A stretch of 64,000 nucleotides of DNA from IMG/VR virus record IMGVR_UViG_3300024333_000003, one strand, 5' to 3'. This document shows, in pieces, positions 4,401 to 32,553 of this stretch (position 1 is its first letter; each line of letters begins with the position of its first letter). Source of the DNA: a virus (lineage: Duplodnaviria > Heunggongvirae > Uroviricota > Caudoviricetes). Position numbers and translations under genes: made by a program. The notes beneath the pieces were generated by a model that did no database searches, was not told where the DNA came from, and saw only the letters and a list, made by a program, of their open reading frames with translations.

Positions 4401-4965
4401 AGAAAAATACTTAACTACCACCTATCCCAAACTCTTTCCACCAAGACATGATCCGCGTGAAAGCTTAATGGTATTTGGTTTTGAGTGTGGAGATGGGTGG
4501 TTTTGGATTATAGATCAGTTATGTGCCATGATACAATGGAAAATTGATCAAGAATTTGAAAATTATAACCGTAAAGTATCATATAATAAAATGATAGCCG
4601 ATGCCCAAGCTGGTAATACCGACGACTTGGACAAATATTTTGAATTCATTGCGGATTTAAAACAGCGTGCCGAACGCAAAGCAGCCGCTTTAAATGCAGG
4701 ATTAACGGATATTAAAGATGAAGACAAACCATATCAACCAGAAGTTATACAGGTAAAAGAGAAATATGGTACTTTACGGTTTTATATATCTGCCAGTTCA
4801 TCGGAGATACATAATTATATTGCGTTTGCCGAACATTTGTCTGCAACCACATGCGAATTCTGCGGTAGTCATGAAAACATCAAGACATCACAAGGCTGGA
4901 TGATAACCGCTTGTGATAAATGTATACAAAGTCACGAGTCATTAAAAAATAGGAGTTGGAAATGA
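4387..4965 (+). CDS. hypothetical protein with C-terminal CxxC...CxxC zinc ribbon
   Basis: CEFCGS...CDKC near the C-terminus. Confidence 0.4.
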   Translation: MSPDKEKYLTTTYPKLFPPRHDPRESLMVFGFECGDGWFWIIDQLCAMIQWKIDQEFENYNRKVSYNKMIADAQAGNTDDLDKYFEFIADLKQRAERKAAALNAGLTDIKDEDKPYQPEVIQVKEKYGTLRFYISASSSEIHNYIAFAEHLSATTCEFCGSHENIKTSQGWMITACDKCIQSHESLKNRSWK

Positions 4966-5330: not shown

Positions 5331-5739
5331 AGCCGTAAATCATTACTGGACTCGCGAAGAGGTAGCGAAAGATACAGAACATTTATACCTTTTTGGAGAA
5401 AATATTGCTGACGCAAAACCAGATCCAATTAGTAAGAAGATCTTTATCCCAACAACGACTCAGGCAGTTATACGTGGACTTAAGAACGCAATTGGGATCC
5501 CCACCAAAAAAACCCGTGGTACAAACAAAGATGCCTACTTTAACGATACTAATGCCGACTTTGAACTATTCAAGCGTGGAGTTGATGAAGCGATTGAGAA
5601 AGCCAAAAAAGACGGACGACCAATAAAGATCAGCGTATATGGACTAGGTACCGGAGCCGCCGCTGTAAGAGGTGCATTTAAAAATGGTACCGGGCGATTT
5701 TTTGATTACTTATATACACGGTTAGGAGAGCTAGACTAA
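5323..5739 (+). CDS. hypothetical protein
   Basis: 138-aa ORF. Confidence 0.35.
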   Translation: MLKAVNHYWTREEVAKDTEHLYLFGENIADAKPDPISKKIFIPTTTQAVIRGLKNAIGIPTKKTRGTNKDAYFNDTNADFELFKRGVDEAIEKAKKDGRPIKISVYGLGTGAAAVRGAFKNGTGRFFDYLYTRLGELD

Positions 5740-6334
5740 TGTTCAATATATTAGAGTTGTTAATAATTGTTCCTGCGCTGTCAGCAATAATTGTACTGAC
5801 GATACTTTCTTTGATTGACTGGAAATCAAACAACATCTGGTTTTGTGAAAAAATGGGTTGGCACAAGCCACCAGAACGAGTAGGATTTGACGGCTGTAGT
5901 ATGGAGGGTTTTTGCCCCAGGTGTGGAAAGCACGTGTTAAGGGATTCACAAGGGAATTGGTTTTGATCAGGAGATTGCCATAAAAGAACATTTTACATTA
6001 ACAATAGATTTATTTACCCTAGTATGGCTTACTATTGGTGTCATTTTGTGTTTAAACAATTTAATTAGCTGGTGGGTACTATTACTCATTGGCCTTTCAC
6101 ACGTTCACGCAAAATTGGATTTTCATATATGATACACAAATTCTTTTTATACATAACAAATAACTTGCCAACGTCCTGTCATGAAGAAGTTTTCGACACG
6201 ATATTTTTCATACTCAATTCGATTGCATTAGTTGTAGGTATTATTATACTAATCCTAGTAAATGAACCGCAATGGATAGCATTTCTTGTAATTGAGTATG
6301 ACTGGGCATTGGATAATATAAGGCATAATAGACT

Positions 6335-7901: not shown

Positions 7902-8993
7902 ATGAGTACATTTATAGTACCGATTGTAACTATTAAAACTGTTATTAAACATCCAAACGCCGATTCATTAGATATACTATCGTTTGAAGAAGTATCTTGG
8001 CAATGCGTAGATAAAATTAATACACGCAAACCTGGCGACATGGTAGTATATATTCCAATTGATAGTGTAGTGGACGTCCGTCGGCCAGAATTTGAGTTCT
8101 TAAAATCAAAGGCTAAGGCTGACTATTCTTGTCGTATACGTACAATCAGATTGCGTGGCGAGATTAGCCAGGGGTTGGTTATTTCTATGCCCAGCGATAT
8201 GATAAAATGGCTGTGCGATAAAATTACTGGTCATAAAGACTGCGCACAAGGTATATCGTTTGATATACCAGGGCAGGATGTATCGGAGTATTATGGTATA
8301 AAAAAATATGAGCCACCACCAGAAAGTATACCTCCTTTATCGGCAGGTAATTATCCAAGTTGGTGTGAAAAAAGCGATGCTGAACGATATCAAAACTATA
8401 ATCGCACTATTGAGCCGTTTCGAGACCATGCATTTTATAAAACTATAAAAATGGATGGTGCCAGTATAACGGTATTTTATGATGCGGAAACAGAACATAG
8501 CGGAGTCTGCAGCCGAAACTGGGAAATTAAAGAAAATAGTGATATCACAAGACTTGACAACTATTGGCTTATCGCGAAGAAATATAATTTACTCCAAATC
8601 GTAAAAGATATTGCTATGGATAAGGGTATAAAGCGCCTTGCGTTGCAGGGAGAGATGTGTGGTCCAGGCGTTCAAGGAAATAAGATGGGACTTTCAGAAC
8701 TACAATTTTTTGCCTTTGATATGTATAATGGTGATATTGGTGAATTTATCGAATATCCTTTCTTCATTGCATTATGTCATTATTGGAAAATACCGACCGT
8801 CGAGATTTTAGAGGTTGGTACACTTGGGAAAGAACTCGATACTAATTTTGCGTATGTGTCACAATTGAAATATGATAATGATTTACCTGCCGAAGGTGTA
8901 GTATATGTAGCAGTTAATTCACAGCGTGTAGGTACGCTTGGTAGACTAAAATTTAAATTTATCAACCCAGAATTTTTATTAAAATATGATTGA
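7902..8993 (+). CDS. ATP-dependent RNA ligase with N-terminal tRNA-binding (Myf/CsaA-like OB) domain
   Basis: N-terminal HPNADSLD motif typical of the tRNA-binding OB domain; nucleotidyltransferase motif I KMDGAS (KxDG) in the central region. Confidence 0.55.
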   Translation: MSTFIVPIVTIKTVIKHPNADSLDILSFEEVSWQCVDKINTRKPGDMVVYIPIDSVVDVRRPEFEFLKSKAKADYSCRIRTIRLRGEISQGLVISMPSDMIKWLCDKITGHKDCAQGISFDIPGQDVSEYYGIKKYEPPPESIPPLSAGNYPSWCEKSDAERYQNYNRTIEPFRDHAFYKTIKMDGASITVFYDAETEHSGVCSRNWEIKENSDITRLDNYWLIAKKYNLLQIVKDIAMDKGIKRLALQGEMCGPGVQGNKMGLSELQFFAFDMYNGDIGEFIEYPFFIALCHYWKIPTVEILEVGTLGKELDTNFAYVSQLKYDNDLPAEGVVYVAVNSQRVGTLGRLKFKFINPEFLLKYD

Positions 8994-9600
8994 ACAAAAA
9001 TGGGGGCAAACCCCCACCGCTTCGGAGGAAAAACCGAAGAATATCGAAATAGTTAAAGATCCTGCATTTGTTGAAGTAGTTGCAGTAAATAGATTTTATT
9101 TTTACTCCGAAATTGGTAGGGCGGAGGTTTTACAATTAAACCGACGTTTATTCGAAGCTAGCAACCAGTTATTAATCGATGCGGCTGCACAAGAGCGCCC
9201 ACCCGCAGAAATTTATCTGCACATTAACAGTTACGGCGGAAGTATCTTTGCAGGGCTTGCGGCAATGGACGCGATATTGCATTCAAAAATTCCCGTAGTA
9301 ACCATTATCGACGGCTGTTGTGCGTCAGCGGCTACGTTTTTAAGCGTGGCCGGCAAACGTAGAATTATACGACCTAATGCTTATATGCTTATACATCAGT
9401 TATGGTCAGTAAGTTGGGGAAAATTTCGTGAGCTCGAAGATGATCATAAGAATAATAATAAACTTATGGACAAAATTCGTGAGATTTATGCAAAGTATAC
9501 AAAGATTCCCGCAGAAAAAATAAACGAAATATTAGATCATGATCTGTGGTTTGACGCAAAGACATGCCTAGATTATGGATTAGTGGACGAAATAATATGA
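8986..9600 (+). CDS. clpP: ClpP-family serine protease
   Basis: INSYGGSIFAGLA...GCCASAATF (catalytic Ser)...MLIHQ (His)...YGLVDEII (ClpP C-terminal block). Confidence 0.7.
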   Translation: MIEQKWGQTPTASEEKPKNIEIVKDPAFVEVVAVNRFYFYSEIGRAEVLQLNRRLFEASNQLLIDAAAQERPPAEIYLHINSYGGSIFAGLAAMDAILHSKIPVVTIIDGCCASAATFLSVAGKRRIIRPNAYMLIHQLWSVSWGKFRELEDDHKNNNKLMDKIREIYAKYTKIPAEKINEILDHDLWFDAKTCLDYGLVDEII

Positions 9601-20437: not shown

Positions 20438-21054
20438 ATATAGGTATAGATTGCGACGGTATTATGTTTAATTGGGCTAAGGAATACTCACGTATCATAC
20501 GCAGTATTGGAGGGGAACGATATCCATTGATTACAAACGAAGTGGAAGAAGTCCTGTCATACGATTGGTCAGAATGGTATCCAGCCGATAAAAGTTTGTT
20601 GGATAAGGCCTGGAGAGTCATGACGGAAAAAGAACATTTTTGGGAACACGCCGAAGTGTTAAATCCGAGCCAAGTACAGTATATGTGTGAGCGACTGGAT
20701 AAAGATCCGTATATCAATGTTTATTTTATTACAGCTCGGGTACCGGCAAAAGGAGATACATTAATACGACAGACTATAAAAAGCTTAGAGCTCATAGGAT
20801 GGACGTCACCGCAGGTAATAGTATCATTTCGAAAAGGAGCAATCGCCAGAGCATTAGATTTGCGCTATTTTCTTGACGATCGCGCGGAGAATTGTGTTGA
20901 AGTAGCTATGTATCATGATTCTACTAAAGTATTCATCTTGGATAAACGGTATAATCGCATATTACAAGATAAATATTTTAAAATCACACGTATAAAGCGT
21001 TTAGAAGAGTTTACCGATCAAGTCATAAAAGAACTACATACACCAATGAACTGA
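20386..21054 (+). CDS. HAD-superfamily 5'(3')-deoxyribonucleotidase-like hydrolase
   Basis: N-terminal IGIDCDGIMFNW (DxDG motif I). Confidence 0.45.
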   Translation: MACKNKFLSEFKERMSVNIGIDCDGIMFNWAKEYSRIIRSIGGERYPLITNEVEEVLSYDWSEWYPADKSLLDKAWRVMTEKEHFWEHAEVLNPSQVQYMCERLDKDPYINVYFITARVPAKGDTLIRQTIKSLELIGWTSPQVIVSFRKGAIARALDLRYFLDDRAENCVEVAMYHDSTKVFILDKRYNRILQDKYFKITRIKRLEEFTDQVIKELHTPMN

Positions 21055-21060
21055 ATTTTA

Positions 21061-21070
21061 TGGTATAAGA
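21061..21070 (+). promoter_or_regulatory. extended -10 promoter element TGGTATAAGA at the 5' edge of the non-coding RNA locus
   Basis: same decamer recurs at 25511, 38693, 39360, and with variation at 52641 and 52773, each upstream of a gene start. Confidence 0.5.
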
Positions 21071-21316
21071 ATTGCACTGTACGTAGTTTAATATACATTA
21101 CGAGAGTCTCAAGTTTAACCCCGCACATCTACTAGGGATACGACTCCCCCGAAAGTTTTTGCCCTATCGAAAATACAAAAACTGTAAGATTGTGCGGTCC
21201 AGAAATCACTTGACTTTACATAAGAAATTATGTATATTTGTAAGTGGGGTCGTTGATACAGCGTTATCCCGTTAAGATAAAACCGCTGAATCTCTTATTA
21301 TCTCACTATTATTTTT

Positions 21317-21389
21317 GGGCCTATAGCGTAATTGGGAACGCAGTAGCTTTGCAAGCTAAAGACTCGGAGTTCAATTCTCCGTAGGTCCA
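21317..21389 (+). tRNA. tRNA-Ala: tRNA-Ala (anticodon UGC)
   Basis: manual fold: acceptor gggccta/taggtcc with a G3:U70 wobble (the Ala identity element); D-stem gcgt/acgc; anticodon loop ttTGCaa; T-arm cggag-ttcaatt-ctccg; discriminator A; no encoded CCA. Confidence 0.85.
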
Positions 21390-22096
21390 CTAAGCTGAGT
21401 CGGACGCAAGATCGTTATCTTATCTTACCTTACAAAGACAAAAAACACGGTCTTCAATCATTTATTCAGCTTCCAAGTTTAGGGGTCGAATCAATCATCG
21501 TTATCTTTCGCATAAGAACCCGAGCACAAAGTCCTGTGCTCAAGTCGATAATATCGACAGGTTAGGCAACCGGTGGTTAAACATTATCCCTTTAATTTAA
21601 AACAATCAACACTGAACCGTGGTAGAATAATGGGTAGTCTGCCCATAATACGTAGTGGCTGCGAAGATCAGCTGCTGGCAGTACAGTATACATGCGTAAA
21701 GGTAAAACGGCCAGAGTCGTACAACTCTGAGTCTCGTAAGAATCGGACAAATCGCTTATAGACAATCCTGAGGACTGTATCCGATTGGAGGTAGATTCCT
21801 CCCAGAATTCCACGCAAGTGGAACCATAATATATTAGGCCAAATATATGGTCTGTGCCTGAATAACGTAGGTATTTCCAAGGCTTATAGGTAATCAGTAG
21901 CCCTGTCGATTCATTGTTGATCTTATAAGGAGTCGTTATGAACACACTTTCCAAACAAGATATATTTGAAAGATCCGCCGCATGCTTATCGCATAATGTG
22001 GACTTCATTACATTACAGCCTTTTAAAGAAGATATGACAACACATGCTTATTCCTTAGAGGATACTGTAGTCTTTACACAATTTGTACCAATTAAT

Positions 22097-22167
22097 CCAA
22101 ATGCACATAAGGCGTAACCATAACATTGGTATCGCGGAAAATGTAGGTTCGAATCCTACCATTTGGG
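22097..22167 (+). ncRNA. tRNA-like element with canonical T-arm (gtagg-TTCGAAT-cctac) and acceptor-like pairing ccaaatg/catttgg but no regular D or anticodon arm; candidate Y-RNA-type tRNA mimic
   Basis: perfect GGTTCGAATCC T-arm and a 7-bp terminal stem; internal spacing is too short for a standard tRNA. Confidence 0.35.
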
Positions 22168-22775
22168 CTATCGGGTCGAATCGGCTTGGTTATCAATCTA
22201 AGAAAAAAGAACGCGGTAGAGTCCGCAACTAGCCTAGGAATGTAAAAGGCAATCTCCGAGCTCAATATTTATCCGGTAATTTTTAGAAAAGAATATAATA
22301 TCCTTGTTTTGCTTAAATGCAAGTAAGTGATACTTTAAAGAAATTAGAGTTTTTAAGATATTAAAATAGTTGTACGTGACAGTGGTTGCTTACTTGCGAC
22401 TGCTGAAGTCGGTAGTGACGTTCCGCGCTAGGCCGCAAAGCGACCGATGCTTCACTGGTGGAGGTGCCATTCTTAGCTACTGGGAATACACAGTAGTATG
22501 CGTTGCTATTCCGCCAAAAATAGAATAGCATTAGTTTTTCTTGAGGCCGAACAAAGTTGGTTATCATACTTGAATAAAATCAATGGTAATACCATAGCAT
22601 TCGCGAATATGTGAGTAGCGAGTGCGTGTTACTTATAACATAAATAATGTCGCCGGTTAGCGTAGAAACCGATGCCTTGTTATTGGAGCTGCAATCTAAT
22701 AATGCTGCTTGTCAAAAGCATCCGACTTTAAACATTGCCTCATTTTTTTACATCCTAATAGAAAGGGAGTCGAAC

Positions 22776-24437
22776 ATGAACAAGAAAACACCATACTCGC
22801 AAACTGCGAGACAATTAAATCCAAATACACCCGTACCACAATCACAACCAATTCCCGGCAAGACTATGGTACAAAACGCCGCCGGTGGGTACGTGTTTGA
22901 ACTGGATAAGTGGCAAAGACTAGACAGATTTTTAATACTTGGTAGCGAAAGCGGTAATTATTACATTGGCCCGCTAAAGATGACGCAAGATAACGCCAAG
23001 AACGTTGCCGCATGTATTAAAGAAGACGGCAAGCGTGTCGTAGATGTTACAGTGCAAATTTCCGATTCTGGAAGAGCCGCAAAGAACGATCCAGCCTTAT
23101 TTGTTTTGGCGATGTGTGCTGCGGCGGATGATATTGATACGCGTCAATATGCTTTGCAATCATTACAAAAAGTAGCTCGCACCGGAACTTATTTATTCCA
23201 CTTTGTTGAATACATTGACAAAATGCGCGGCTGGAGTCGTGGATTACGTACTGCCATCGGTAACTGGTATACCAATCGCAAGATTGAGTCACTAGCAGTA
23301 CAGCTGGCAAAATATCAATCTAGGGACGGCTGGTCGCATCGCGATGTGTTGCGTTTGGCGCATCCACACCCTGAGACCGAAGCACAGACTTTGGCATTTA
23401 AATGGGCTGTCGACCGTATCAAACAGCAAAAAGATAAGGATTCAAAGTATTTTAACATGGATGCTTATGAGCATGATATGTCCAAGTTAAAAGAATTGTT
23501 ACCACTTATCGGCGCTTACGAAGAAGTGAAAGCTACCGACAATAAGAAACGTATTGTCGAGCTTGTACAAGAATTTGAACTTCCGTTGGAATTAGTTCCT
23601 ACGGAAAAGCGCACAAAACAGGTTTATGATGTGATTATACCTAATTTAGGTATTACTGCATTGATCAGGCAGTTACCAACGCTAACAAATGCCGGAGTTC
23701 TTGGTGAAGTAGGATGTGACAATACAAAGTATATAGTGGAGCAATTCACTAATCCTGAAGTATTGAAGAAAGGTCGTGTCCATCCAATACAAGTTTTAAT
23801 AGCACAGGCAACATACGGTGGAGGAAAAAGTTTCCGTGGGACATCAACATGGAGCCCAGTTCGAAAGTTAGTGGATGCATTAGAAGATTGCTTTTATTTA
23901 TCTTTTGGTGCCGTTGAACCGACGGGAAAACGTATTTTAATAGGATTGGACATTTCAGGCTCAATGAGTATGGGGTCAGTAATTGGTTCTGAACAATTAC
24001 GCCCATGCCAAGTTACCGCAGCTATGTCGATGGTAACCATGCGCACTGAAAAGGATTATGTTATAAAGGGGTTCTCGACATCGTTTTGTGATCTCGGTAT
24101 CTCTCCAAAACAAGATCTAGCCACAGTAATGGCTAAAGTGGCCAACCAAAACTATGGTGGTACTGACTGTTCGTTACCGATGATATACGCCGAACAGCAC
24201 AAAATACCTATCGATGCTTTTGTGGTCTATACGGATAATGAAACTTGGGCTGGGCACGTACATCCAATCCAGGCACTGAAATCTTATCAGCAAAAGATGG
24301 GTATTCCTGCACGATTAATCAGTGTTGCCACATCGGCTACAAACGGAAGCATCGCAGACGATTCTGCTTACACCATGAACGTCGTAGGATTCGATGCATC
24401 TGCACCGAAGATTATAAGTGACTTTATTAGAGGTTAA
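22776..24437 (+). CDS. Ro60/Rsr-like protein (TROVE-type N-terminal region plus C-terminal vWA)
   Basis: ~550 aa; C-terminal MIDAS motif LIGLDISGSMSM; probable start at ATG 22776 with RBS gggag (the ORF track begins at 22647); lies immediately next to the tRNA/tRNA-like RNA locus, as rsr genes do. The TROVE part is inferred and not verified by motif. Confidence 0.5.
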   Translation: MNKKTPYSQTARQLNPNTPVPQSQPIPGKTMVQNAAGGYVFELDKWQRLDRFLILGSESGNYYIGPLKMTQDNAKNVAACIKEDGKRVVDVTVQISDSGRAAKNDPALFVLAMCAAADDIDTRQYALQSLQKVARTGTYLFHFVEYIDKMRGWSRGLRTAIGNWYTNRKIESLAVQLAKYQSRDGWSHRDVLRLAHPHPETEAQTLAFKWAVDRIKQQKDKDSKYFNMDAYEHDMSKLKELLPLIGAYEEVKATDNKKRIVELVQEFELPLELVPTEKRTKQVYDVIIPNLGITALIRQLPTLTNAGVLGEVGCDNTKYIVEQFTNPEVLKKGRVHPIQVLIAQATYGGGKSFRGTSTWSPVRKLVDALEDCFYLSFGAVEPTGKRILIGLDISGSMSMGSVIGSEQLRPCQVTAAMSMVTMRTEKDYVIKGFSTSFCDLGISPKQDLATVMAKVANQNYGGTDCSLPMIYAEQHKIPIDAFVVYTDNETWAGHVHPIQALKSYQQKMGIPARLISVATSATNGSIADDSAYTMNVVGFDASAPKIISDFIRG

Positions 24438-28986: not shown

Positions 28987-31167
28987 ATGGATCAACAAAA
29001 TCCATATTCAGCAGATATTGCTAATTCTTTACATTTAGCAAGAGAATTAGCAATTGATGCTGGTAATCCAACAATAGAGAGTGAACACATTCTCTTAGCC
29101 ATTATACAACTAAAAACAGCTGGCTATAGTTTTTTAGCGAAACAGCTATCTGTGCCAACCTTGCAGATTGCTCTTAGAAAGATAATTAATCAGAACTCAT
29201 CTTCAGTGACGGTAGAAGGTAACATCTTGTTATCTAAACCAGTTTCACAGGCTTTACTACAGTTACGACGTTTTGCTAATGCAGACAGCAAAGATTTTTT
29301 ACTTGCGCTAGCGGCGCAAGCTGGTTGTACAGCACAATTAGTATTGGAACGACACGGATTTAATGTGCGTACCAATGTTTCAACAACCGAGCCTAAAACT
29401 AATGCTGAGCCCACTGATAATGCAACACCCGCATTAGACGCATTTTCCATCGATTTAACAAAACTTGCATCAGAGGCAAAACTTGATCCGGTAGTAAATA
29501 GGATGAAGGAAATAAATCGTATAACGGAAATTTTAGGGCGTCGTAAGAAGAATAATCCTATTCTTGTCGGTGAGCCGGGGGTCGGAAAATCTGCGATTGT
29601 CGAGGGGCTAGCTTTAAAATTGGCAAAAGGCGAAGTAGCCCACTCGTTGCAGGGAAAGCGCATTGTCTCTTTAAATATGGCATCTATCGTGGCGGGCACT
29701 AAGCTGAGAGGTCAATTTGAGGAAAGACTAAAAGCCGTTATTGACGAACTTCAAAAGAATAAAGATATAATAGTTTTTATAGACGAAGTTCATACTTTGA
29801 TTGGATCAGGTGGACCCGAAGGTACCGGAGATGCGGCTAACATGCTTAAACCTGCGTTAGCACGCGGCGAAATACAGTGTATTGGTTCAACTACGTACGA
29901 TGATTATCGTAAGTATATTGAACGCGATCCGGCGCTTGAACGTCGATTTCAAAAACTCACTGTAAATCCACCTACAATAGAAGAAACTATAACTATTTTA
30001 AATCAAATAACACCGCTTTACGAGGAATATCATAAAGTAAAATATGCTGAAGGATTAACCAACATGATTGTTAATCTCAGCGATCGTTATATCACTGACA
30101 GATATTTACCTGATAAAGCTATTGATATATTTGATGAAGCAGGTAGTGTTGCGCACATATCTGAACAATCCGAAGTTACTGAAGAGACAGTACGTAAAGT
30201 GGTATCTACGATGACTGGCGTACCGATGACTTCTATCGGGCAATCGGAACGGGATCGCTTAAAGGATTTGGAAAGCAATCTAAATAAAGTTGTTGTTGGG
30301 CAAGAAGAAGCAATAGCTATGTTAGTAAAAGCAGTCAAACGCGCACGAACAGGCGTACAAAATGTAAAAAAACCATTCAGTGCGTTACTACTAGGTCCAA
30401 CTGGTGTTGGTAAGACAGAGACAGCAAAACAACTTGCTAAATGTTTATTTGATTCCGAAGATGCTTTGCTACGTGTGGATATGAGTGAACTGTCTGAAGC
30501 TCATTCTATATCTAAATTAATAGGATCACCTCCTGGCTATGTTGGTTATGATGAAGGCGGCCAATTAACTGAACGCGTGCGACAAAAACCATATTCTATT
30601 GTATTGTTAGATGAAGTGGAAAAAGCACACCATGATGTGTTTAACGTGTTTCTACAAGTTTTTGACGACGGTATTTTAACAGATGGACGTGGAAAAAATG
30701 TTAACTTTAAAAATACAATTCTTCTAATGACCTCTAATATAGGTACGGTAGAAGCAGCTAAATCTAAACTCGGATTTAGCAACGATAATGATAAAAAGTC
30801 CAAAGACGCAAAACGCAACGAAGCGTTAAAAACCCATTTTCGTCCAGAATTTTTGAACAGAATCGATGAGATAGTACATTATAATGATTTATCTCAAGAG
30901 GCTGTAAAGAAAATTTTAGAGTTATATTTAAAACAAATGAGTGTACAAGTAATTTTATCCCCAGAAGCAACTGATTATCTAGTTGCTAATGGCTATTCTA
31001 AGGAATATGGAGCTCGTCCTCTACGCAGACTTGTACAAAATAAAATCGAATCCCCAATAGCTGATCTATTAATAGATTCTCCGGAACTAGATTTATTCGA
31101 TGCAGCTGTTGTTGAAGACACGATTAAAGTTACACCACAAATTATAGTAAAAGAACAGGAAATATAA
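28987..31167 (+). CDS. ClpA/ClpC-type AAA+ unfoldase (two AAA modules plus Clp_N repeats)
   Basis: N-domain repeats; Walker A GEPGVGKSAIVEGLA (D1) and LLLGPTGVGKTETAKQLA (D2); sensor/arginine blocks GARPLRR. Confidence 0.75.
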   Translation: MDQQNPYSADIANSLHLARELAIDAGNPTIESEHILLAIIQLKTAGYSFLAKQLSVPTLQIALRKIINQNSSSVTVEGNILLSKPVSQALLQLRRFANADSKDFLLALAAQAGCTAQLVLERHGFNVRTNVSTTEPKTNAEPTDNATPALDAFSIDLTKLASEAKLDPVVNRMKEINRITEILGRRKKNNPILVGEPGVGKSAIVEGLALKLAKGEVAHSLQGKRIVSLNMASIVAGTKLRGQFEERLKAVIDELQKNKDIIVFIDEVHTLIGSGGPEGTGDAANMLKPALARGEIQCIGSTTYDDYRKYIERDPALERRFQKLTVNPPTIEETITILNQITPLYEEYHKVKYAEGLTNMIVNLSDRYITDRYLPDKAIDIFDEAGSVAHISEQSEVTEETVRKVVSTMTGVPMTSIGQSERDRLKDLESNLNKVVVGQEEAIAMLVKAVKRARTGVQNVKKPFSALLLGPTGVGKTETAKQLAKCLFDSEDALLRVDMSELSEAHSISKLIGSPPGYVGYDEGGQLTERVRQKPYSIVLLDEVEKAHHDVFNVFLQVFDDGILTDGRGKNVNFKNTILLMTSNIGTVEAAKSKLGFSNDNDKKSKDAKRNEALKTHFRPEFLNRIDEIVHYNDLSQEAVKKILELYLKQMSVQVILSPEATDYLVANGYSKEYGARPLRRLVQNKIESPIADLLIDSPELDLFDAAVVEDTIKVTPQIIVKEQEI

Positions 31168-32138: not shown

Positions 32139-32521
32139 ATTACTGGTTATTAGATTGGGCAAATATTACACGTGGTACACCGGATATACTAAGTCAAGGA
32201 CACTCTGAACATGATGCTAAAACTTTGACATCTACGCAACTGTTAACAACAGAACCAGATTTTAATTTTTTAGCGCGTTTTGTAATAAGTCCCAATGAGA
32301 TAGAACAATTTCCAACAGAATTTCATATTGACGATGTCTTAAATAATAGACTTTCTATCGATCTAATTAAAGGAGCCAAACATTTTTTTCTACTTGGTGA
32401 TCGATATGAAATTGTCGGAAAATTGTCAAATAGTATCAATAGTTATTTTAAGATTCAAAATATAATGGGGTTCCACGTTGTCTTAATTAAGACATTTAGG
32501 TTAGGGGCTCCACTAGATTAA
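32048..32521 (+). CDS. hypothetical protein
   Basis: 157-aa ORF overlapping the previous ORF in another frame; lower confidence. Confidence 0.3.
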   Translation: MEKFKGHCFGAQKRNCIGLRYCMATCTDKINYWLLDWANITRGTPDILSQGHSEHDAKTLTSTQLLTTEPDFNFLARFVISPNEIEQFPTEFHIDDVLNNRLSIDLIKGAKHFFLLGDRYEIVGKLSNSINSYFKIQNIMGFHVVLIKTFRLGAPLD

Positions 32522-32522
32522 A

Positions 32523-32553
32523 ATAGGGTACGTTGTACCCTATTTTTTTTTAT
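32523..32553. terminator. bidirectional Rho-independent terminator between convergent genes
   Basis: atagggtac-gtt-gtaccctat hairpin flanked by A-run and T-run. Confidence 0.65.

What the first reader, a model, noticed from the sequence alone, without database searches (positions are those of the whole stretch)
21061..24437. Ro60-like protein gene adjacent to a 1.6-kb promoter-driven small-RNA locus with tRNA-Ala and tRNA-mimic elements (Rsr/Y-RNA-type module)
The 21061..22646 interval has no credible ORF. It begins with the recurring TGGTATAAGA promoter motif and contains a bona fide tRNA-Ala(UGC) (21317..21389) with the G3:U70 identity pair. It also carries several tRNA-like fragments, including a perfect T-arm gtaggTTCGAATcctac with an acceptor-like 7-bp stem (22097..22167), repeated GGGTCGAATC motifs (21483, 22173), and hairpins (for example gagcaca/tgtgctc at 21521). 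A TROVE/vWA-sized protein with a C-terminal MIDAS follows directly. This is the genomic signature of bacterial rsr loci, where Y RNAs such as YrlA have tRNA-like domains and are encoded next to rsr, frequently together with RNA ligase genes. Here the RNA ligases (16092, 7902) and Pnkp (18874) are nearby.
Basis: partly seen in the sequence, partly recalled or inferred. Interest (0 to 1): 0.8.

Follow-up and report, generated by a model that had tools for sequence, protein, structure and literature searches.

The report
Phage Ro60 gene with five Y-RNAs
An uncultivated giant phage carries a Ro60 RNA-binding protein gene preceded by a tRNA-Ala gene and five tandem small-RNA genes of the Y-RNA type, a known bacterial and phage RNA quality-control module rather than a new kind of system.

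Summary
22776-24437 encodes a full-length Ro60 (TROVE + Ro60-vWA; closest solved structure D. radiodurans Rsr). tRNA-Ala(UGC) at 21317-21389 is real. Between a conserved sigma-70-type promoter (21210-21238) and the Ro60 start lie five same-strand units: U1 21242-21308, U2 21392-21472, U3 21478-21594, U4 22168-22279, U5 22539-22749. All share one architecture: terminal helix, bulged C, G:U pair, internal loop, second helix, UUAUC. This matches the Ro60-binding module of Y RNAs (GNCGAA... YUAY).

A covariance model trained only on relatives ranks exactly these five as the top hits in the 64-kb window. In 67 bacterial rsr loci it gives 79 hits, all on the rsr strand, and 78 lie within 1.4 kb of rsr. 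Covariation is strong: 34 units, 92.6% paired, 14 of 16 pairs with double changes.

Corrections:
- The interval is not ORF-free. A conserved 59-aa gene lies at 21938-22117.
- The GGGTCGAATC repeats are Ro60-binding motifs, not tRNA fragments.
- No unit here has the YrlA tRNA-like domain, and Rfam YrlA gives no hit.
- The 22097-22167 tRNA-like element is separate and probably a processing signal.

Expression and Ro60 binding are untested. This is a new member of a known kind.

The parts
21061..21070 (+). TGGTATAAGA, a phage promoter-like motif (extended -10 type) just after the stop codon of the upstream gene
   Evidence: Four exact + strand copies in the window (21061, 25511, 38693, 39360). 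TTTTATGGTATAAGA is conserved at the same place in 6 of 7 syntenic loci. Function is inferred.
21121..21197 (+). Conserved structured leader RNA. It has an outer stem CCGCACA/UGUGCGG and an invariant core CUAGGR..CGACUCCYCCGAA (21132-21153). Role unknown.
   Evidence: MAFFT/RNAalifold on 7 loci: 15 pairs, 10 with compensatory changes. No Rfam hit.
21210..21238 (+). Sigma-70-type promoter TTGACT-17 nt-TATATT. The predicted transcription start is about 21242-21245, at the first base pairs of U1.
   Evidence: Best promoter match in the region, 10 of 12. TTGAC(A/T)-17-TATA(T/C/G)T lies in the same position in front of a Y-type unit in L001, L006, L007 and L008.
21242..21308 (+). U1, a 67-nt Y-RNA-like long hairpin (YrlB-like). 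Helix 1 is AGUGGGGU/AUCUCACU, the bulged C is 21251, helix 2 is ACAGCG/CGCUG, and the inner hairpin is UUAUC-CCGUUAA-GAUAA. A U-rich tail follows up to the tRNA.
   Evidence: R2 63 bits, E 8e-13. MFE z -2.9. RNAalifold on 7 orthologues gives 20 pairs. The U1-type model R1 also hits 14 places upstream or just downstream of bacterial rsr.
21317..21389 (+). tRNA-Ala(UGC) with G3:U70; no encoded CCA
   Evidence: ARAGORN. Rfam tRNA 65.1 bits. tRNA-Ala(UGC) is conserved directly after a Y-type unit in L001, L005, L006, L007 and L008.
21392..21472 (+). U2, an 81-nt Y-RNA-like unit. Helix 1 is AAGCUGAGU/AUUCAGCUU (9 bp), the bulged C is 21401, and helix 2 is AAGAUCG/CGGUCUU. It starts 2 nt after the tRNA-Ala discriminator base.
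   Evidence: R2 38.3 bits, E 8.6e-7. MFE z -4.0. The partner score was reached by 0 of 200 shuffles. RNAalifold on 7 sequences: 13 pairs, 8 compensatory.
21478..21594 (+). U3, a 117-nt Y-RNA-like unit in the position of the YrlA-like type. Helix 1 is AGGGGU/AUCCCU, the bulged C is 21487, the motif is GUCGAAUC, and helix 2 is AUCAUCG/CGGUGGU. The interior hairpin GAGCACA-AAGUCC-UGUGCUC replaces the T arm seen in relatives.
   Evidence: R2 18.9 bits with filters off and 29.2 bits with default filters. MFE z -3.7. RNAalifold on 6 orthologues recovers both helices. The orthologues L001, L005, L007 (two copies) and L008 carry a UUCGAWY T-loop hairpin.
21597..21937 (+). A stretch of about 330 nt absent from relatives, closed by an imperfect 15-bp stem (21605-21619/21907-21921). 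Nature unknown.
   Evidence: In relatives the small ORF follows U3 directly. MFE z -2.4. No Rfam hit. One exact 29-mer probe from this stretch found nothing in IMG/VR.
21938..22117 (+). Conserved small protein gene (59 aa) with Shine-Dalgarno AAGGAG. Function unknown.
   Evidence: ORF list. Homologues in L001, L003, L005, L007 and L008 share the LDF(I/V)T(M/L)KP(L/F) core. No PHROG hit.
22097..22167 (+). tRNA-like element with a 7-bp acceptor stem, a T arm (GUAGG-UUCGAAU-CCUAC) and a central hairpin, but no D arm. It overlaps the stop codon of the small ORF and abuts U4. It is probably an RNase P/RNase Z processing signal.
   Evidence: Rfam tRNA 23.4 bits, below the gathering score of 29. Not called by ARAGORN. 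Fold z -2.75. T-arm elements lie directly before the U4 orthologues in L005 and L006.
22168..22279 (+). U4, a 112-nt Y-RNA-like unit. Helix 1 is UAUCGGGU/AUCCGGUA, the bulged C is 22177, the motif is GUCGAAUC, and helix 2 is GGCUUGG/CCGAGCU. The interior is highly conserved, and a U-run follows.
   Evidence: R2 32.9 bits, E 1.8e-5; this unit type was not in the training set. RNAalifold on 4 orthologues: 23 pairs, 7 compensatory.
22455..22529 (+). 'X element'. It consists of CUGGUGGAGGUG, an inner hairpin, and a hairpin GCUAUUC/GAAUAGC with the conserved loop CGCCAAAAAU. Function unknown.
   Evidence: Conserved in L001/L002, L003, L005 and partly L006, with a covarying stem. Absent from the bacterial loci.
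22539..22749 (+). U5, a Y-RNA-like unit of about 207 nt. Helix 1 is UGAGGC/GCCUCA, the bulged C is 22548, the motif is GCCGAACA, and helix 2 is AAGUUGG/CCGACUU. Seven U residues (22743-22749) follow, 26 nt before the Ro60 start codon.
   Evidence: R2 22.3 bits, E 0.007; this unit type was not in the training set. MFE z -2.7. RNAalifold on 7 orthologues: 23 pairs, 12 compensatory.
22776..24437 (+). Ro60/Rsr orthologue (553 aa) with a TROVE ring and a vWA domain carrying MIDAS. Shine-Dalgarno AAGGGAG at 22763-22769.
   Evidence: Pfam. PDB 2NVO, 1YVP and 9NEN. 74% identity to orthologues in syntenic phage contigs that start at the equivalent ATG.
16092..19734 (+). Upstream RNA-repair gene block: Rnl1-type ligase 16092-17165, Nudix 17562-17981, RlaP nucleotidyltransferase 18170-18886, Pnkp kinase-phosphatase 18874-19734. 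A second, Rnl2-type ligase lies at 7902-8993.
   Evidence: Pfam. The same gene order occurs in L003, L005, L006, L007 and L008.

Best explanation
The stretch 21210-24437 is a phage version of the bacterial rsr/Y-RNA module.

Proposed transcription (inferred). A host-type promoter at 21210-21238, and possibly the phage-type TGGTATAAGA motif at 21061, drives one long transcript. It carries, in order: U1, tRNA-Ala, U2, U3, a small protein gene, a tRNA-like element, U4, a further structured element, U5 and the Ro60 gene.

Proposed processing (inferred). Host tRNA-processing enzymes cut at tRNA-Ala and at the D-armless tRNA-like element: RNase P at the 5' side and RNase Z or a similar activity at the 3' side. 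U1 ends 8 nt before tRNA-Ala, U2 starts 2 nt after it, and U4 starts right after the tRNA-like element. Those cuts would therefore release Y-type RNAs with ends flush with their terminal helices.

Proposed function (inferred). Each unit presents the same Ro60-binding module: a terminal helix, a bulged C, an almost invariant G:U pair, an internal loop starting G-N-C-G-(A-A), and a second helix closed by S-G before UUAUC. The interiors differ between units but are conserved between phages. By analogy with D. radiodurans and Thermus phage phiLo, these interiors would tether phage Ro60 to different partners, such as host PNPase. The aim would be to degrade or handle structured or damaged RNA during infection, alongside the neighbouring RNA-repair enzymes. 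U5 sits 26 nt before the Ro60 start codon and ends in a U-run, so it may also act as a leaky terminator or an autoregulatory leader.

Shown here: the sequence and structure conservation, the family relationship, the Ro60 identity and the tRNA. Inferred: transcription, the cleavage sites, Ro60 binding and the partners.
For: - Ro60 identity.
- Motif clustering: 4 of 4 GTCG-N9-14-GTTATC matches in the 64 kb lie in 21249-22194 on the + strand, against 0.52 expected.
- Recurrence: 41 units with the same architecture occur in 8 syntenic phage loci.
- Structure found without my choice of partner: RNAalifold on plain MAFFT alignments recovers helix 1 and helix 2 for every unit type, with compensatory changes. 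On the pooled short-unit alignment it recovers helix 1 only.
- Model-fitted alignment of 34 units: 92.6% of cells paired against 37-47% when partners are slid, 14 of 16 pairs with double changes, and G:U after the bulge in 33 of 34.
- Model R2, trained only on relatives' short units, ranks U1, U2, U4, U5 and U3 as the top five hits in the whole window on both strands. The next hits are plain terminator hairpins.
- R2 on 67 bacterial rsr loci: 79 hits in 46 loci, all on the rsr strand. 69 lie 27-1370 nt upstream and 9 lie within 540 nt downstream.
- The Rfam nematode sbRNA (Y-RNA homologue) model RF01656 passes its gathering score on two bacterial units that R1 and R2 also hit.
- Mycobacteriophage Catera has the same flanking architecture around an Rfam YrlA match: GGC[C]GAGAG ... 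GUCGGUUACC ... CCGGUGGAC ... CCAUGU-helix.
- Literature: the GNCGAAN0-1G and YUAY motifs; Y RNAs within 4 kb of Ro60 on the same strand, in 254 bacteria and 22 phages; the D. radiodurans Yrn2-tRNA-Asp-Yrn1 polycistron; RNase P cleavage of M. smegmatis YrlA (PMC4201824). Thermus phage phiLo Ro60 binds two upstream Y-like RNAs and host PNPase (PMC12135203).
- The promoter is conserved in front of units in relatives.
Against: - There are no expression, end-mapping or binding data.
- Rfam YrlA, Y_RNA and sbRNA models give no hit in the window at E <= 10.
- Only three of the five units have the full GNCGAA (U1 has GUCGUU, U2 has GUCGGA), and none has the trailing G of the published motif.
- No unit in this window has the T/AS/D tRNA-like domain said to be present in at least one Y RNA per species. 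The T arm of U3 is degenerate.
- Taken one at a time, several terminal helices are not better than the best random partner (shuffle fractions of 0.14-0.24 for U1 and U3). The case rests on recurrence and covariation.
- RNase P cleavage at 22097 would cut the small ORF's mRNA before its stop codon, which is awkward for the processing model.
- R2 scores the Catera YrlB-like RNA at only 13.7 bits (E 0.86).
Confidence: 0.8

Rival explanations
1. The units are cis-acting elements of the precursor or of the Ro60 mRNA, not stable trans-acting Y RNAs. They would act as processing, stability or termination signals between tRNA genes, with a Ro60-binding autoregulatory leader in front of Ro60.
For: - Many units end in U-runs, and the R2 consensus ends UUUuUU.
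- In relatives, some units are followed directly by a new promoter.
- U5 ends 26 nt before the Ro60 start codon. In bacteria, hits lie as close as 27 nt to rsr.
- In L009 the units sit between genes of a 30-tRNA array.
Against: - The same module occurs in bacterial loci that have no tRNAs nearby, such as L013, L014 and L029.
- Unit interiors are conserved and type-specific, which a plain terminator does not need.
- In every tested species, RNAs of this architecture accumulate and bind Ro60 (PMC4201824; PMC12135203).
- The two roles do not exclude each other.
Confidence: 0.1
2. The region is a decayed phage tRNA array. The tRNA-like pieces and repeats would be pseudogene debris around one surviving tRNA-Ala, with no function of their own.
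For: - Relatives carry more tRNAs in the same gap: L007 has Ala, Ala, Met; L008 has Ala, Ala, Arg; L009 has 30 tRNAs around Ro60.
- The 22097-22167 element scores as a sub-threshold tRNA.
- Many bacterial rsr loci adjoin long tRNA arrays.
Against: - The five units do not fold as cloverleaves and are not hit by the tRNA model.
- Both helices are kept by compensatory changes across loci with 52-74% Ro60 identity.
- The motif is confined to Ro60 neighbourhoods, including loci without tRNA arrays.
Confidence: 0.03
3. The units bind a partner other than Ro60, for example the neighbouring RlaP, Pnkp or ligase proteins, or a host factor. Their linkage to Ro60 would then be indirect.
For: - The RNA-repair genes are syntenic with the array in all close relatives.
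- No binding data exist for this phage.
Against: - In the 67 bacterial loci the hits track rsr itself, on the same strand with a median distance of 366 nt.
- The conserved part is the bulged-C helix. Published structures and footprints assign this helix to Ro60 (summarised in PMC4201824 and PMC12135203).
Confidence: 0.05

Closest known systems
Bacterial and phage YrlA/YrlB Y RNAs (Chen et al. 2014, PMC4201824; Rfam RF02553 YrlA)
   Same: - Encoded within 4 kb of Ro60/Rsr on the same strand, several per locus.
- A G-N-C-G-(A-A) motif near the 5' end and Y-U-A-Y about 15-20 nt later, opening the variable part.
- A stem formed by the two ends.
- Mycobacteriophage Catera shows the same flanks around its Rfam YrlA match.
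- U1 resembles the 'long hairpin' YrlB class.
   Different: - No unit in this window has the T arm, acceptor-like stem-loop and D arm domain, and RF02553 gives no hit.
- The trailing G of GNCGAAN0-1G is absent.
- Both strands of the bulged helix are conserved here. For Salmonella and M. smegmatis only the 5' strand was reported as recognisable.
- There are five units rather than two.
Deinococcus radiodurans rsr locus (Yrn1, Yrn2, RNAs a, b and d, and tRNA-Asp)
   Same: - Several small RNAs lie upstream of rsr.
[quoted passage not shown]
- Both strands of the metazoan-like Ro60-binding helix are retained (PMC4201824).
   Different: - This is a phage genome.
- The tRNA is Ala(UGC), and there is an additional D-armless tRNA-like element.
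- A small protein gene is embedded in the array.
- The array lies next to Rnl/Pnkp/RlaP genes rather than being a stress-induced chromosomal locus.
Thermus phage phiLo Ro60 with Yrl1 and Yrl2 (PMC12135203)
   Same: - A phage-encoded Ro60 with Y-like RNAs immediately upstream, identified through the CGAA motif in a stem-bulge-stem.
- Binding to Ro60 and to host PNPase has been shown experimentally.
   Different: - Two RNAs rather than five.
- In the passages read, no tRNA or tRNA-like punctuation is described.
- I did not compare the sequences directly, and that phage did not appear among the tblastn hits.
Metazoan Y RNAs and nematode stem-bulge RNAs (Rfam RF00019, RF01656)
   Same: - A terminal helix with a bulged C followed by G:U and A:U pairs. 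My recollection of hY1 is GGUC[C]GA/UU-GAC. Here the helix is GGC[C]GA/UU-GCC or GGU[C]GA/UU-AUC.
- A U-rich 3' end.
- RF01656 passes its gathering score on two bacterial members of the family.
   Different: - No Rfam hit of either model in this window.
- Bacterial-type promoter and processing instead of RNA polymerase III.
- The UUAUC element and second helix are specific to the prokaryotic and phage units.
TROVE genes inside tRNA gene clusters (archaea: 20 of 29 clusters, PMC6333295; phage tRNA arrays)
   Same: - Ro60 is linked to same-strand tRNA genes. In relative L009, Ro60 lies inside a 30-tRNA array.
- 21 of 80 bacterial rsr loci have 5 or more same-strand tRNAs within 4 kb.
   Different: This window keeps only one tRNA and one tRNA-like remnant. 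The published observation concerns gene content and does not describe the interleaved Y-type RNAs.

Membership tests
Prokaryotic Y RNA (YrlA/YrlB sense of Chen et al. 2014) | Encoded within about 4 kb of a Ro60/Rsr gene on the same strand | tested here: met
   All five units lie 27-1534 nt upstream of the Ro60 start on the + strand.
Prokaryotic Y RNA (YrlA/YrlB sense of Chen et al. 2014) | GNCGAAN0-1G motif near the 5' end | tested here: inconclusive
   GNCG is present in all five. GNCGAA is present in U3, U4 (GUCGAA) and U5 (GCCGAA). U1 has GUCGUU and U2 has GUCGGA. The trailing G is not present in any.
Prokaryotic Y RNA (YrlA/YrlB sense of Chen et al. 2014) | Stem formed by the 5' and 3' ends that carries the motif, with a large internal loop or variable module beyond it | tested here: met
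   Helix 1, bulged C, G:U, internal loop and helix 2 are found in all five. Covariation.
Prokaryotic Y RNA (YrlA/YrlB sense of Chen et al. 2014) | YUAY starting the variable loop about 15-20 nt after the motif | tested here: met
   UUAU(C) occurs in all five units and in 40 of 41 units in the relatives.
Prokaryotic Y RNA (YrlA/YrlB sense of Chen et al. 2014) | At least one Y RNA per species has a tRNA-like domain (T arm, acceptor-like stem-loop, D arm) | tested here: not met
   No unit in the window has it. U3 has a 7-bp hairpin with the loop AAGUCC where its orthologues have a UUCGAWY T loop. The tRNA-like 22097-22167 lies outside the units.
Prokaryotic Y RNA (YrlA/YrlB sense of Chen et al. 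2014) | Accumulates as a discrete small RNA and is bound by Ro60 | not testable with these tools
   Needs RNA sequencing or Northern blots, and immunoprecipitation or gel-shift assays.
Rfam YrlA (RF02553) | Covariance-model score at or above the gathering score of 69 bits | tested here: not met
   No hit at E <= 10 in 20900-22900, nor in relative L007. The positive control, mycobacteriophage Catera, reaches 36.1 bits on its tRNA-like part.
Rfam Y_RNA (RF00019) and nematode sbRNA (RF01656) | Covariance-model match | tested here: not met
   No hit in the window at E <= 10. RF01656 does pass its gathering score on two bacterial units of the same R1/R2 family.
Ro60/Rsr protein | TROVE HEAT-repeat ring plus C-terminal vWA domain with MIDAS | tested here: met
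   Pfam PF05731 and PF25045. Full-length match to 2NVO, 1YVP and 9NEN. D392, S394 and S396 are invariant.
tRNA (element 22097-22167) | Cloverleaf with D arm and anticodon arm; Rfam tRNA at 29 bits or more | tested here: not met
   23.4 bits, with only the acceptor stem and T arm aligned. ARAGORN is negative. There is no D arm, and the central hairpin has a 6-nt loop.
tRNA (21317-21389) | Cloverleaf, anticodon and alanine identity pair G3:U70 | tested here: met
   sequence.

The most novel reading that the evidence does not exclude
Y-type RNA modules would be an integral, punctuating part of 'back-up' tRNA arrays in phages and bacteria. They are co-transcribed with the tRNAs and released by the same RNase P/Z cuts. 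In this phage, five paralogous Y RNAs would direct one Ro60 to five different partners, such as host PNPase, other nucleases, or the phage Pnkp, ligase and RlaP repair enzymes. The purpose would be to triage tRNAs damaged by host anticodon nucleases. U5 would in addition feed back on Ro60 synthesis as a Ro60-binding leader or terminator.
Probability: 0.15. Interest if true: 0.6.

Novelty: new member of a known kind. Interest (0 to 1): 0.35.

Why it matters
Ro60/Y-RNA particles are well studied in animals because Ro60 is a lupus and Sjogren autoantigen, but their function is best understood in one bacterium. Phage versions have only begun to be examined.

- This locus adds a clean, compact example. 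One Ro60 gene is paired with five structurally defined candidate Y RNAs in a 215-kb phage, next to RNA ligases, Pnkp and RlaP. It is a good test bed for asking whether different Y RNAs give Ro60 different partners during infection.
- The covariance model built here captures the Ro60-binding module itself (helix, bulged C, G:U, loop, helix, UUAUC). It finds units next to rsr in 46 of 67 bacterial loci, often in arrays of up to 5 (4 at 21 bits or more). Rfam's YrlA model misses these in the window and in relative L007, because it scores the tRNA-like domain. A curated family for this module would improve annotation.
- None of this changes the concept, so the value is incremental.

Tried and rejected
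- Rfam at gathering and at lenient thresholds on the window and relatives found only tRNAs. YrlA, Y_RNA and sbRNA gave nothing in the window.
- DNA search against cultured phages found no match. The phage has no sequenced close relative in that collection.
- Reading the GGGTCGAATC repeats as T-loop relics was rejected. They sit at the 5' strand of a covarying bulged helix.
- Treating the tRNA-like 22097-22167 plus U4 as one permuted YrlA was rejected. The element has normal, non-permuted tRNA topology and lies wholly 5' of U4's terminal helix.
- My first pooled helix-1 count used partners chosen by complementarity and is partly circular. It was replaced as main evidence by the MAFFT-only RNAalifold runs and the model-based tests.
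- A pooled MAFFT alignment of short units did not keep helix 2 in register, so the iterative covariance-model route was used instead.
- The roughly 330-nt insert (21597-21937) was tested as a sixth unit or a mobile element. There was no R2 hit, no Rfam hit, and no match for the one exact 29-mer probe in IMG/VR. It is left unexplained.
- Self-cleaving ribozymes were considered as processing devices. The only hint was a sub-threshold Pistol match in L001, at a non-homologous place, so the idea was dropped.
- Two review papers on bacterial Y RNAs and the Burroughs and Aravind RNA-repair paper were not available.
- Structure prediction, fold search and the representative-protein search were not used. 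The Ro60 assignment was already unambiguous.

Full report
**1. What is in the sequence**

The window is AT-rich, about 37% G+C. Its Ro60 protein occurs on public contigs of up to 215 kb, so it comes from an uncultivated jumbo phage. No cultured phage matches at the DNA level.

ARAGORN and Rfam find one tRNA in the whole window: tRNA-Ala(UGC) at 21317-21389, scoring 65.1 bits. Its G3:U70 pair can be read from the sequence.

The ORF 22776-24437 is a full-length Ro60:
- Pfam TROVE 3.6e-38 and Ro60-vWA 1.5e-54.
- End-to-end matches to D. radiodurans Rsr 2NVO (1.4e-119), Xenopus Ro60 1YVP and human RO60 9NEN.
- The MIDAS residues D392, S394 and S396 are invariant in an alignment with 11 homologues.

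There is an Rnl1-type ligase at 16092, a second ligase at 7902, and Pnkp at 18874, plus RlaP at 18170 and Nudix at 17562.

The tRNA-like element at 22097-22167 exists but is not a tRNA. It scores 23.4 bits against a gathering score of 29, with only the acceptor stem and T arm aligned. It has no D arm, and ARAGORN is negative.

One statement is wrong: the interval is not free of genes. 21938-22117 encodes a 59-aa protein behind a strong Shine-Dalgarno sequence. Homologues lie at the equivalent place in five relatives.

**2. The repeated motif and the five units**

It occurs four times in the 64 kb, all on the + strand between 21249 and 22194, against 0.52 expected. A slightly relaxed form adds a fifth copy at 22545.

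I fetched syntenic loci encoding Ro60 proteins 52-74% identical to this one. Each has the same long gap in front of Ro60, and each gap holds about five to eight copies of the motif, two in the distant L009.

Every copy has a partner downstream that forms a 5-9-bp helix with three constant features:
- The C of GYCG is bulged out.
- The following G pairs with a U.
- The 3' strand reads (A/U)UU just before the helix.

Best partners score 12.7 on average, against 9.7 +/- 1.8 for shuffled downstream sequence. A second helix of 6-8 bp follows an asymmetric internal loop and ends just before UUAUC. In total, 41 units in 8 loci fit this plan.

In the window the units are:

| Unit | Coordinates | Length |
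|---|---|---|
| U1 | 21242-21308 | 67 nt |
| U2 | 21392-21472 | 81 nt |
| U3 | 21478-21594 | 117 nt |
| U4 | 22168-22279 | 112 nt |
| U5 | 22539-22745, plus a run of seven U | 207 nt |

Each folds into this shape on its own, with z-scores from -1.9 to -4.0.

**3. Is the structure real?**

My first pooled count was impressive: 83.7% paired and 105 double-change cells, against 42 in shuffles. However, the partners had been chosen by complementarity, so I looked for independent tests.

- *Plain alignments.* RNAalifold on plain MAFFT alignments of orthologous units recovers helix 1 and helix 2 for all five types, with compensatory changes. On a pooled alignment of 18 short units it still finds helix 1.
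- *First model.* A covariance model of the U1 type (R1) hits only the gap in front of Ro60 in the relatives.
- *Second model.* The 15 hits from relatives alone were realigned. They show 86.9% pairing, against 32-49% when partners are slid, and 12 of 16 pairs have double changes. They were used to build a general model, R2.
- *Blind test on the window.* Searched with filters off over the whole window and both strands, R2 ranks U1 (63 bits), U2 (38.3), U4 (32.9), U5 (22.3) and U3 (18.9) as its five best hits. The U3, U4 and U5 types were not in the training set. The next hits are plain terminator hairpins that match only helix 1 and the U-run.
- *Full alignment.* An alignment of 34 units from the window and relatives gives 92.6% pairing, 14 of 16 pairs with double changes, and a G:U pair after the bulged C in 33 of 34.

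**4. What family is it?**

The published signature of bacterial Y RNAs has four parts (PMC4201824):
- A GNCGAAN0-1G motif near the 5' end, likened to the GGUCCGA contacted by Xenopus Ro60.
- A stem formed by the two ends.
- YUAY opening the variable part.
- A location within 4 kb of Ro60 on the same strand.

The units fit this. The exceptions are that only U3, U4 and U5 have the AA, and none has the trailing G.

The link to bacteria was tested directly. I fetched 80 bacterial rsr loci and searched 67 of them with R2. There were 79 hits in 46 loci, and every one is on the rsr strand. Of these, 69 lie 27-1370 nt upstream of rsr (median 366), 9 lie within 540 nt downstream, and one is elsewhere. 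The small U1-type hairpin alone is found in 13 bacterial loci (14 hits) from several phyla.

Two of these bacterial units are also hit above the gathering score by Rfam's nematode stem-bulge RNA model. That model describes a family of Y-RNA homologues.

In mycobacteriophage Catera, an Rfam YrlA match lies in front of the Ro gene (36 bits, on the tRNA-like part). It is flanked by the same architecture: GGC[C]GAGAG, then GUCGGUUACC, then CCGGUGGAC, then CCAUGU and the closing helix. A second RNA just downstream reads GGC[C]GAAGG ... GUCGGUUAUC.

I therefore file the five units as Y-type RNAs.

**5. Where the window departs from the textbook**

Rfam does contain YrlA (RF02553), but it gives no hit in the window or in relative L007. 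The reason is that no unit here carries the T arm, acceptor-like stem-loop and D arm domain.

The U3 orthologues in relatives have a UUCGAWY T-loop hairpin and a second hairpin with a conserved AUGGAAGAG loop. The window's U3 instead has a 7-bp hairpin with loop AAGUCC. So the defining feature 'one tRNA-mimicking Y RNA per species' is not met in this window.

The tRNA-like features lie between the units. tRNA-Ala sits between U1 and U2, and the D-armless element sits directly before U4. The spacing is tight and conserved:
- U1 ends 8 nt before the tRNA, and in relatives the gap is 1-9 nt.
- U2 starts 2 nt after the discriminator base.
- U4 starts at the base after the tRNA-like element.

In relatives a tRNA or a tRNA-like element precedes the corresponding units in the same way.

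This points to processing by the tRNA-maturation enzymes, which is an inference. There are published precedents: D. radiodurans makes Yrn2, tRNA-Asp and Yrn1 from one precursor, and RNase P cuts M. smegmatis YrlA (PMC4201824).

**6. Transcription signals**

The best sigma-70-type match in the region is TTGACT-17-TATATT at 21210-21238. It ends 3-6 nt before the first base pairs of U1. The same promoter, with the same spacing, precedes units in L001, L006, L007 and L008.

It is conserved at this position in relatives, in front of a conserved structured leader.

Several units end in U-runs. U5 ends with seven U residues, 26 nt before the Ro60 start codon, so Ro60 expression must involve read-through. 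U5 may double as a regulatory leader, which is an inference.

**7. Likely function**

Two experimentally studied systems guide the inference:
- In D. radiodurans, Y RNA tethers Rsr to PNPase for the decay of structured RNA (PMC4201824).
- In Thermus phage phiLo, a phage Ro60 binds two upstream Y-like RNAs and host PNPase (PMC12135203).

Jumbo phages with a TROVE protein among RNA-repair genes have also been noted (PMC7824862). In Salmonella the rsr-yrlBA-rtcBA operon responds to cleaved tRNAs (PMC7790460).

The most likely role here is the same kind of RNP. One common Ro60-binding module is combined with five different, conserved interiors that could recruit different partners. The particle would work beside Pnkp, the two ligases and RlaP during infection. 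Nothing about binding or partners is shown by my data.

**8. Comparison and novelty**

Phage Ro60 genes with adjacent Y RNAs, polycistronic Y RNA-tRNA precursors, and TROVE genes in tRNA clusters (archaea, PMC6333295) are all on record. Arrays of four or five units also occur in the bacterial loci I sampled, for example L014 and L017.

This is therefore a new member of a known kind. It has minor peculiarities: five units, loss of the tRNA-like domain, an embedded small gene, and a tRNA-like punctuation element.

The practical by-product is a model of the Ro60-binding module. It finds units that Rfam's YrlA model did not detect in the window or in L007.

**9. Limits**

- All evidence is comparative.
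- E-values from my models are rough because calibration was short.
- The model-fitted alignments lean towards the structure, although the slid controls and the MAFFT-only runs argue against an artefact.
- The bacterial loci are mostly metagenome-assembled genomes, and some may be integrated elements.
- The host of the phage is unknown.

Noticed in passing
L011-L090 (bacterial rsr loci), e.g. L012 608-3358, L017 391-3475, L036 1293-3343: Many bacterial rsr genes closest to this phage's Ro60 lie at the end of long same-strand tRNA arrays. Of 80 loci, 21 have 5 or more tRNAs within 4 kb and 16 have 10 or more; 347 of 349 tRNAs are on the rsr strand. Y-type units lie between the array and rsr. A TROVE-tRNA cluster link was reported for archaea (PMC6333295). 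The cyanobacterial long-array paper (PMC8421152) does not mention Ro60.
   Followed up: partly
L029 3728-3794 and 3815-3883: Rfam's nematode stem-bulge RNA model RF01656 passes its gathering score (46.8 and 47.5 bits against 38) on two tandem units upstream of rsr in a Saccharibacteria genome. My phage-derived models hit the same places.
   Followed up: partly
window 21055-21205: Conserved leader in front of the array. It consists of TTTTATGGTATAAGA, a hairpin, an invariant CUAGGR..CGACUCCYCCGAA core (21132-21153) and covarying stems. It is present in all 7 syntenic loci and has no Rfam match.
   Followed up: partly
window 21061, 25511, 38693, 39360: Four exact + strand copies of TGGTATAAGA, each at the start of an intergenic or leader region. 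This is probably a phage promoter of the extended -10 type.
   Followed up: partly
window 21597-21937: A stretch of about 330 nt between U3 and the small ORF that is absent from all relatives. It is closed by an imperfect 15-bp stem, and its fold z-score is -2.4. It has no Rfam hit, no R2 hit, and one exact 29-mer probe from it found nothing in IMG/VR.
   Followed up: partly
window 22455-22529: Conserved element between U4 and U5. It comprises CUGGUGGAGGUG, an inner hairpin, and a hairpin whose stem covaries between phages while its loop CGCCAAAAAU is constant. The upstream UGGUGG could pair with the loop, as a pseudoknot or an alternative fold. It is found only in the close phage relatives.
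   Followed up: partly
window 21938-22117 and 22097-22167: The stop codon of the conserved 59-aa gene lies inside the tRNA-like element. RNase P cleavage there would leave the mRNA without a stop codon. The protein has no Pfam or PHROG assignment.
   Followed up: partly
window 22647-22775: The public gene call for this Ro60 (596 aa, from ATG 22647) overlaps unit U5. The start at 22776, behind AAGGGAG, matches the orthologues (552-557 aa).
   Followed up: yes
L005 4758-4942; L007 4712-4915; L008 about 4640-4762: Long tRNA-like elements in relatives. They have a 7-8-bp closing stem with a T arm next to its 3' strand, and roughly 125-170 nt of conserved sequence (UCUGCAGA ... CUUUGGGCUUACUG) where the D and anticodon arms would be. 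They are not called as tRNA or tmRNA.
   Followed up: no
L009 1-13665: In a more distant phage (Ro60 52% identical) the Ro60 gene sits inside an array of 30 tRNA genes. Y-type units are interspersed among the tRNAs at 2693-2861, 4580-4681, 5657-5758 and 12156-12230.
   Followed up: partly
window 32518-32549 and 53559-53591: Symmetric GGGU...ACCC hairpins flanked by A-runs and U-runs that score on both strands. They are probably bidirectional intrinsic terminators at strand-switch points.
   Followed up: no
window 8986-9600, 13213-13920, 28987-31167: The same phage region also encodes a ClpP-like protease, a PP2C phosphatase and a ClpB-like double AAA+ ATPase.
   Followed up: no
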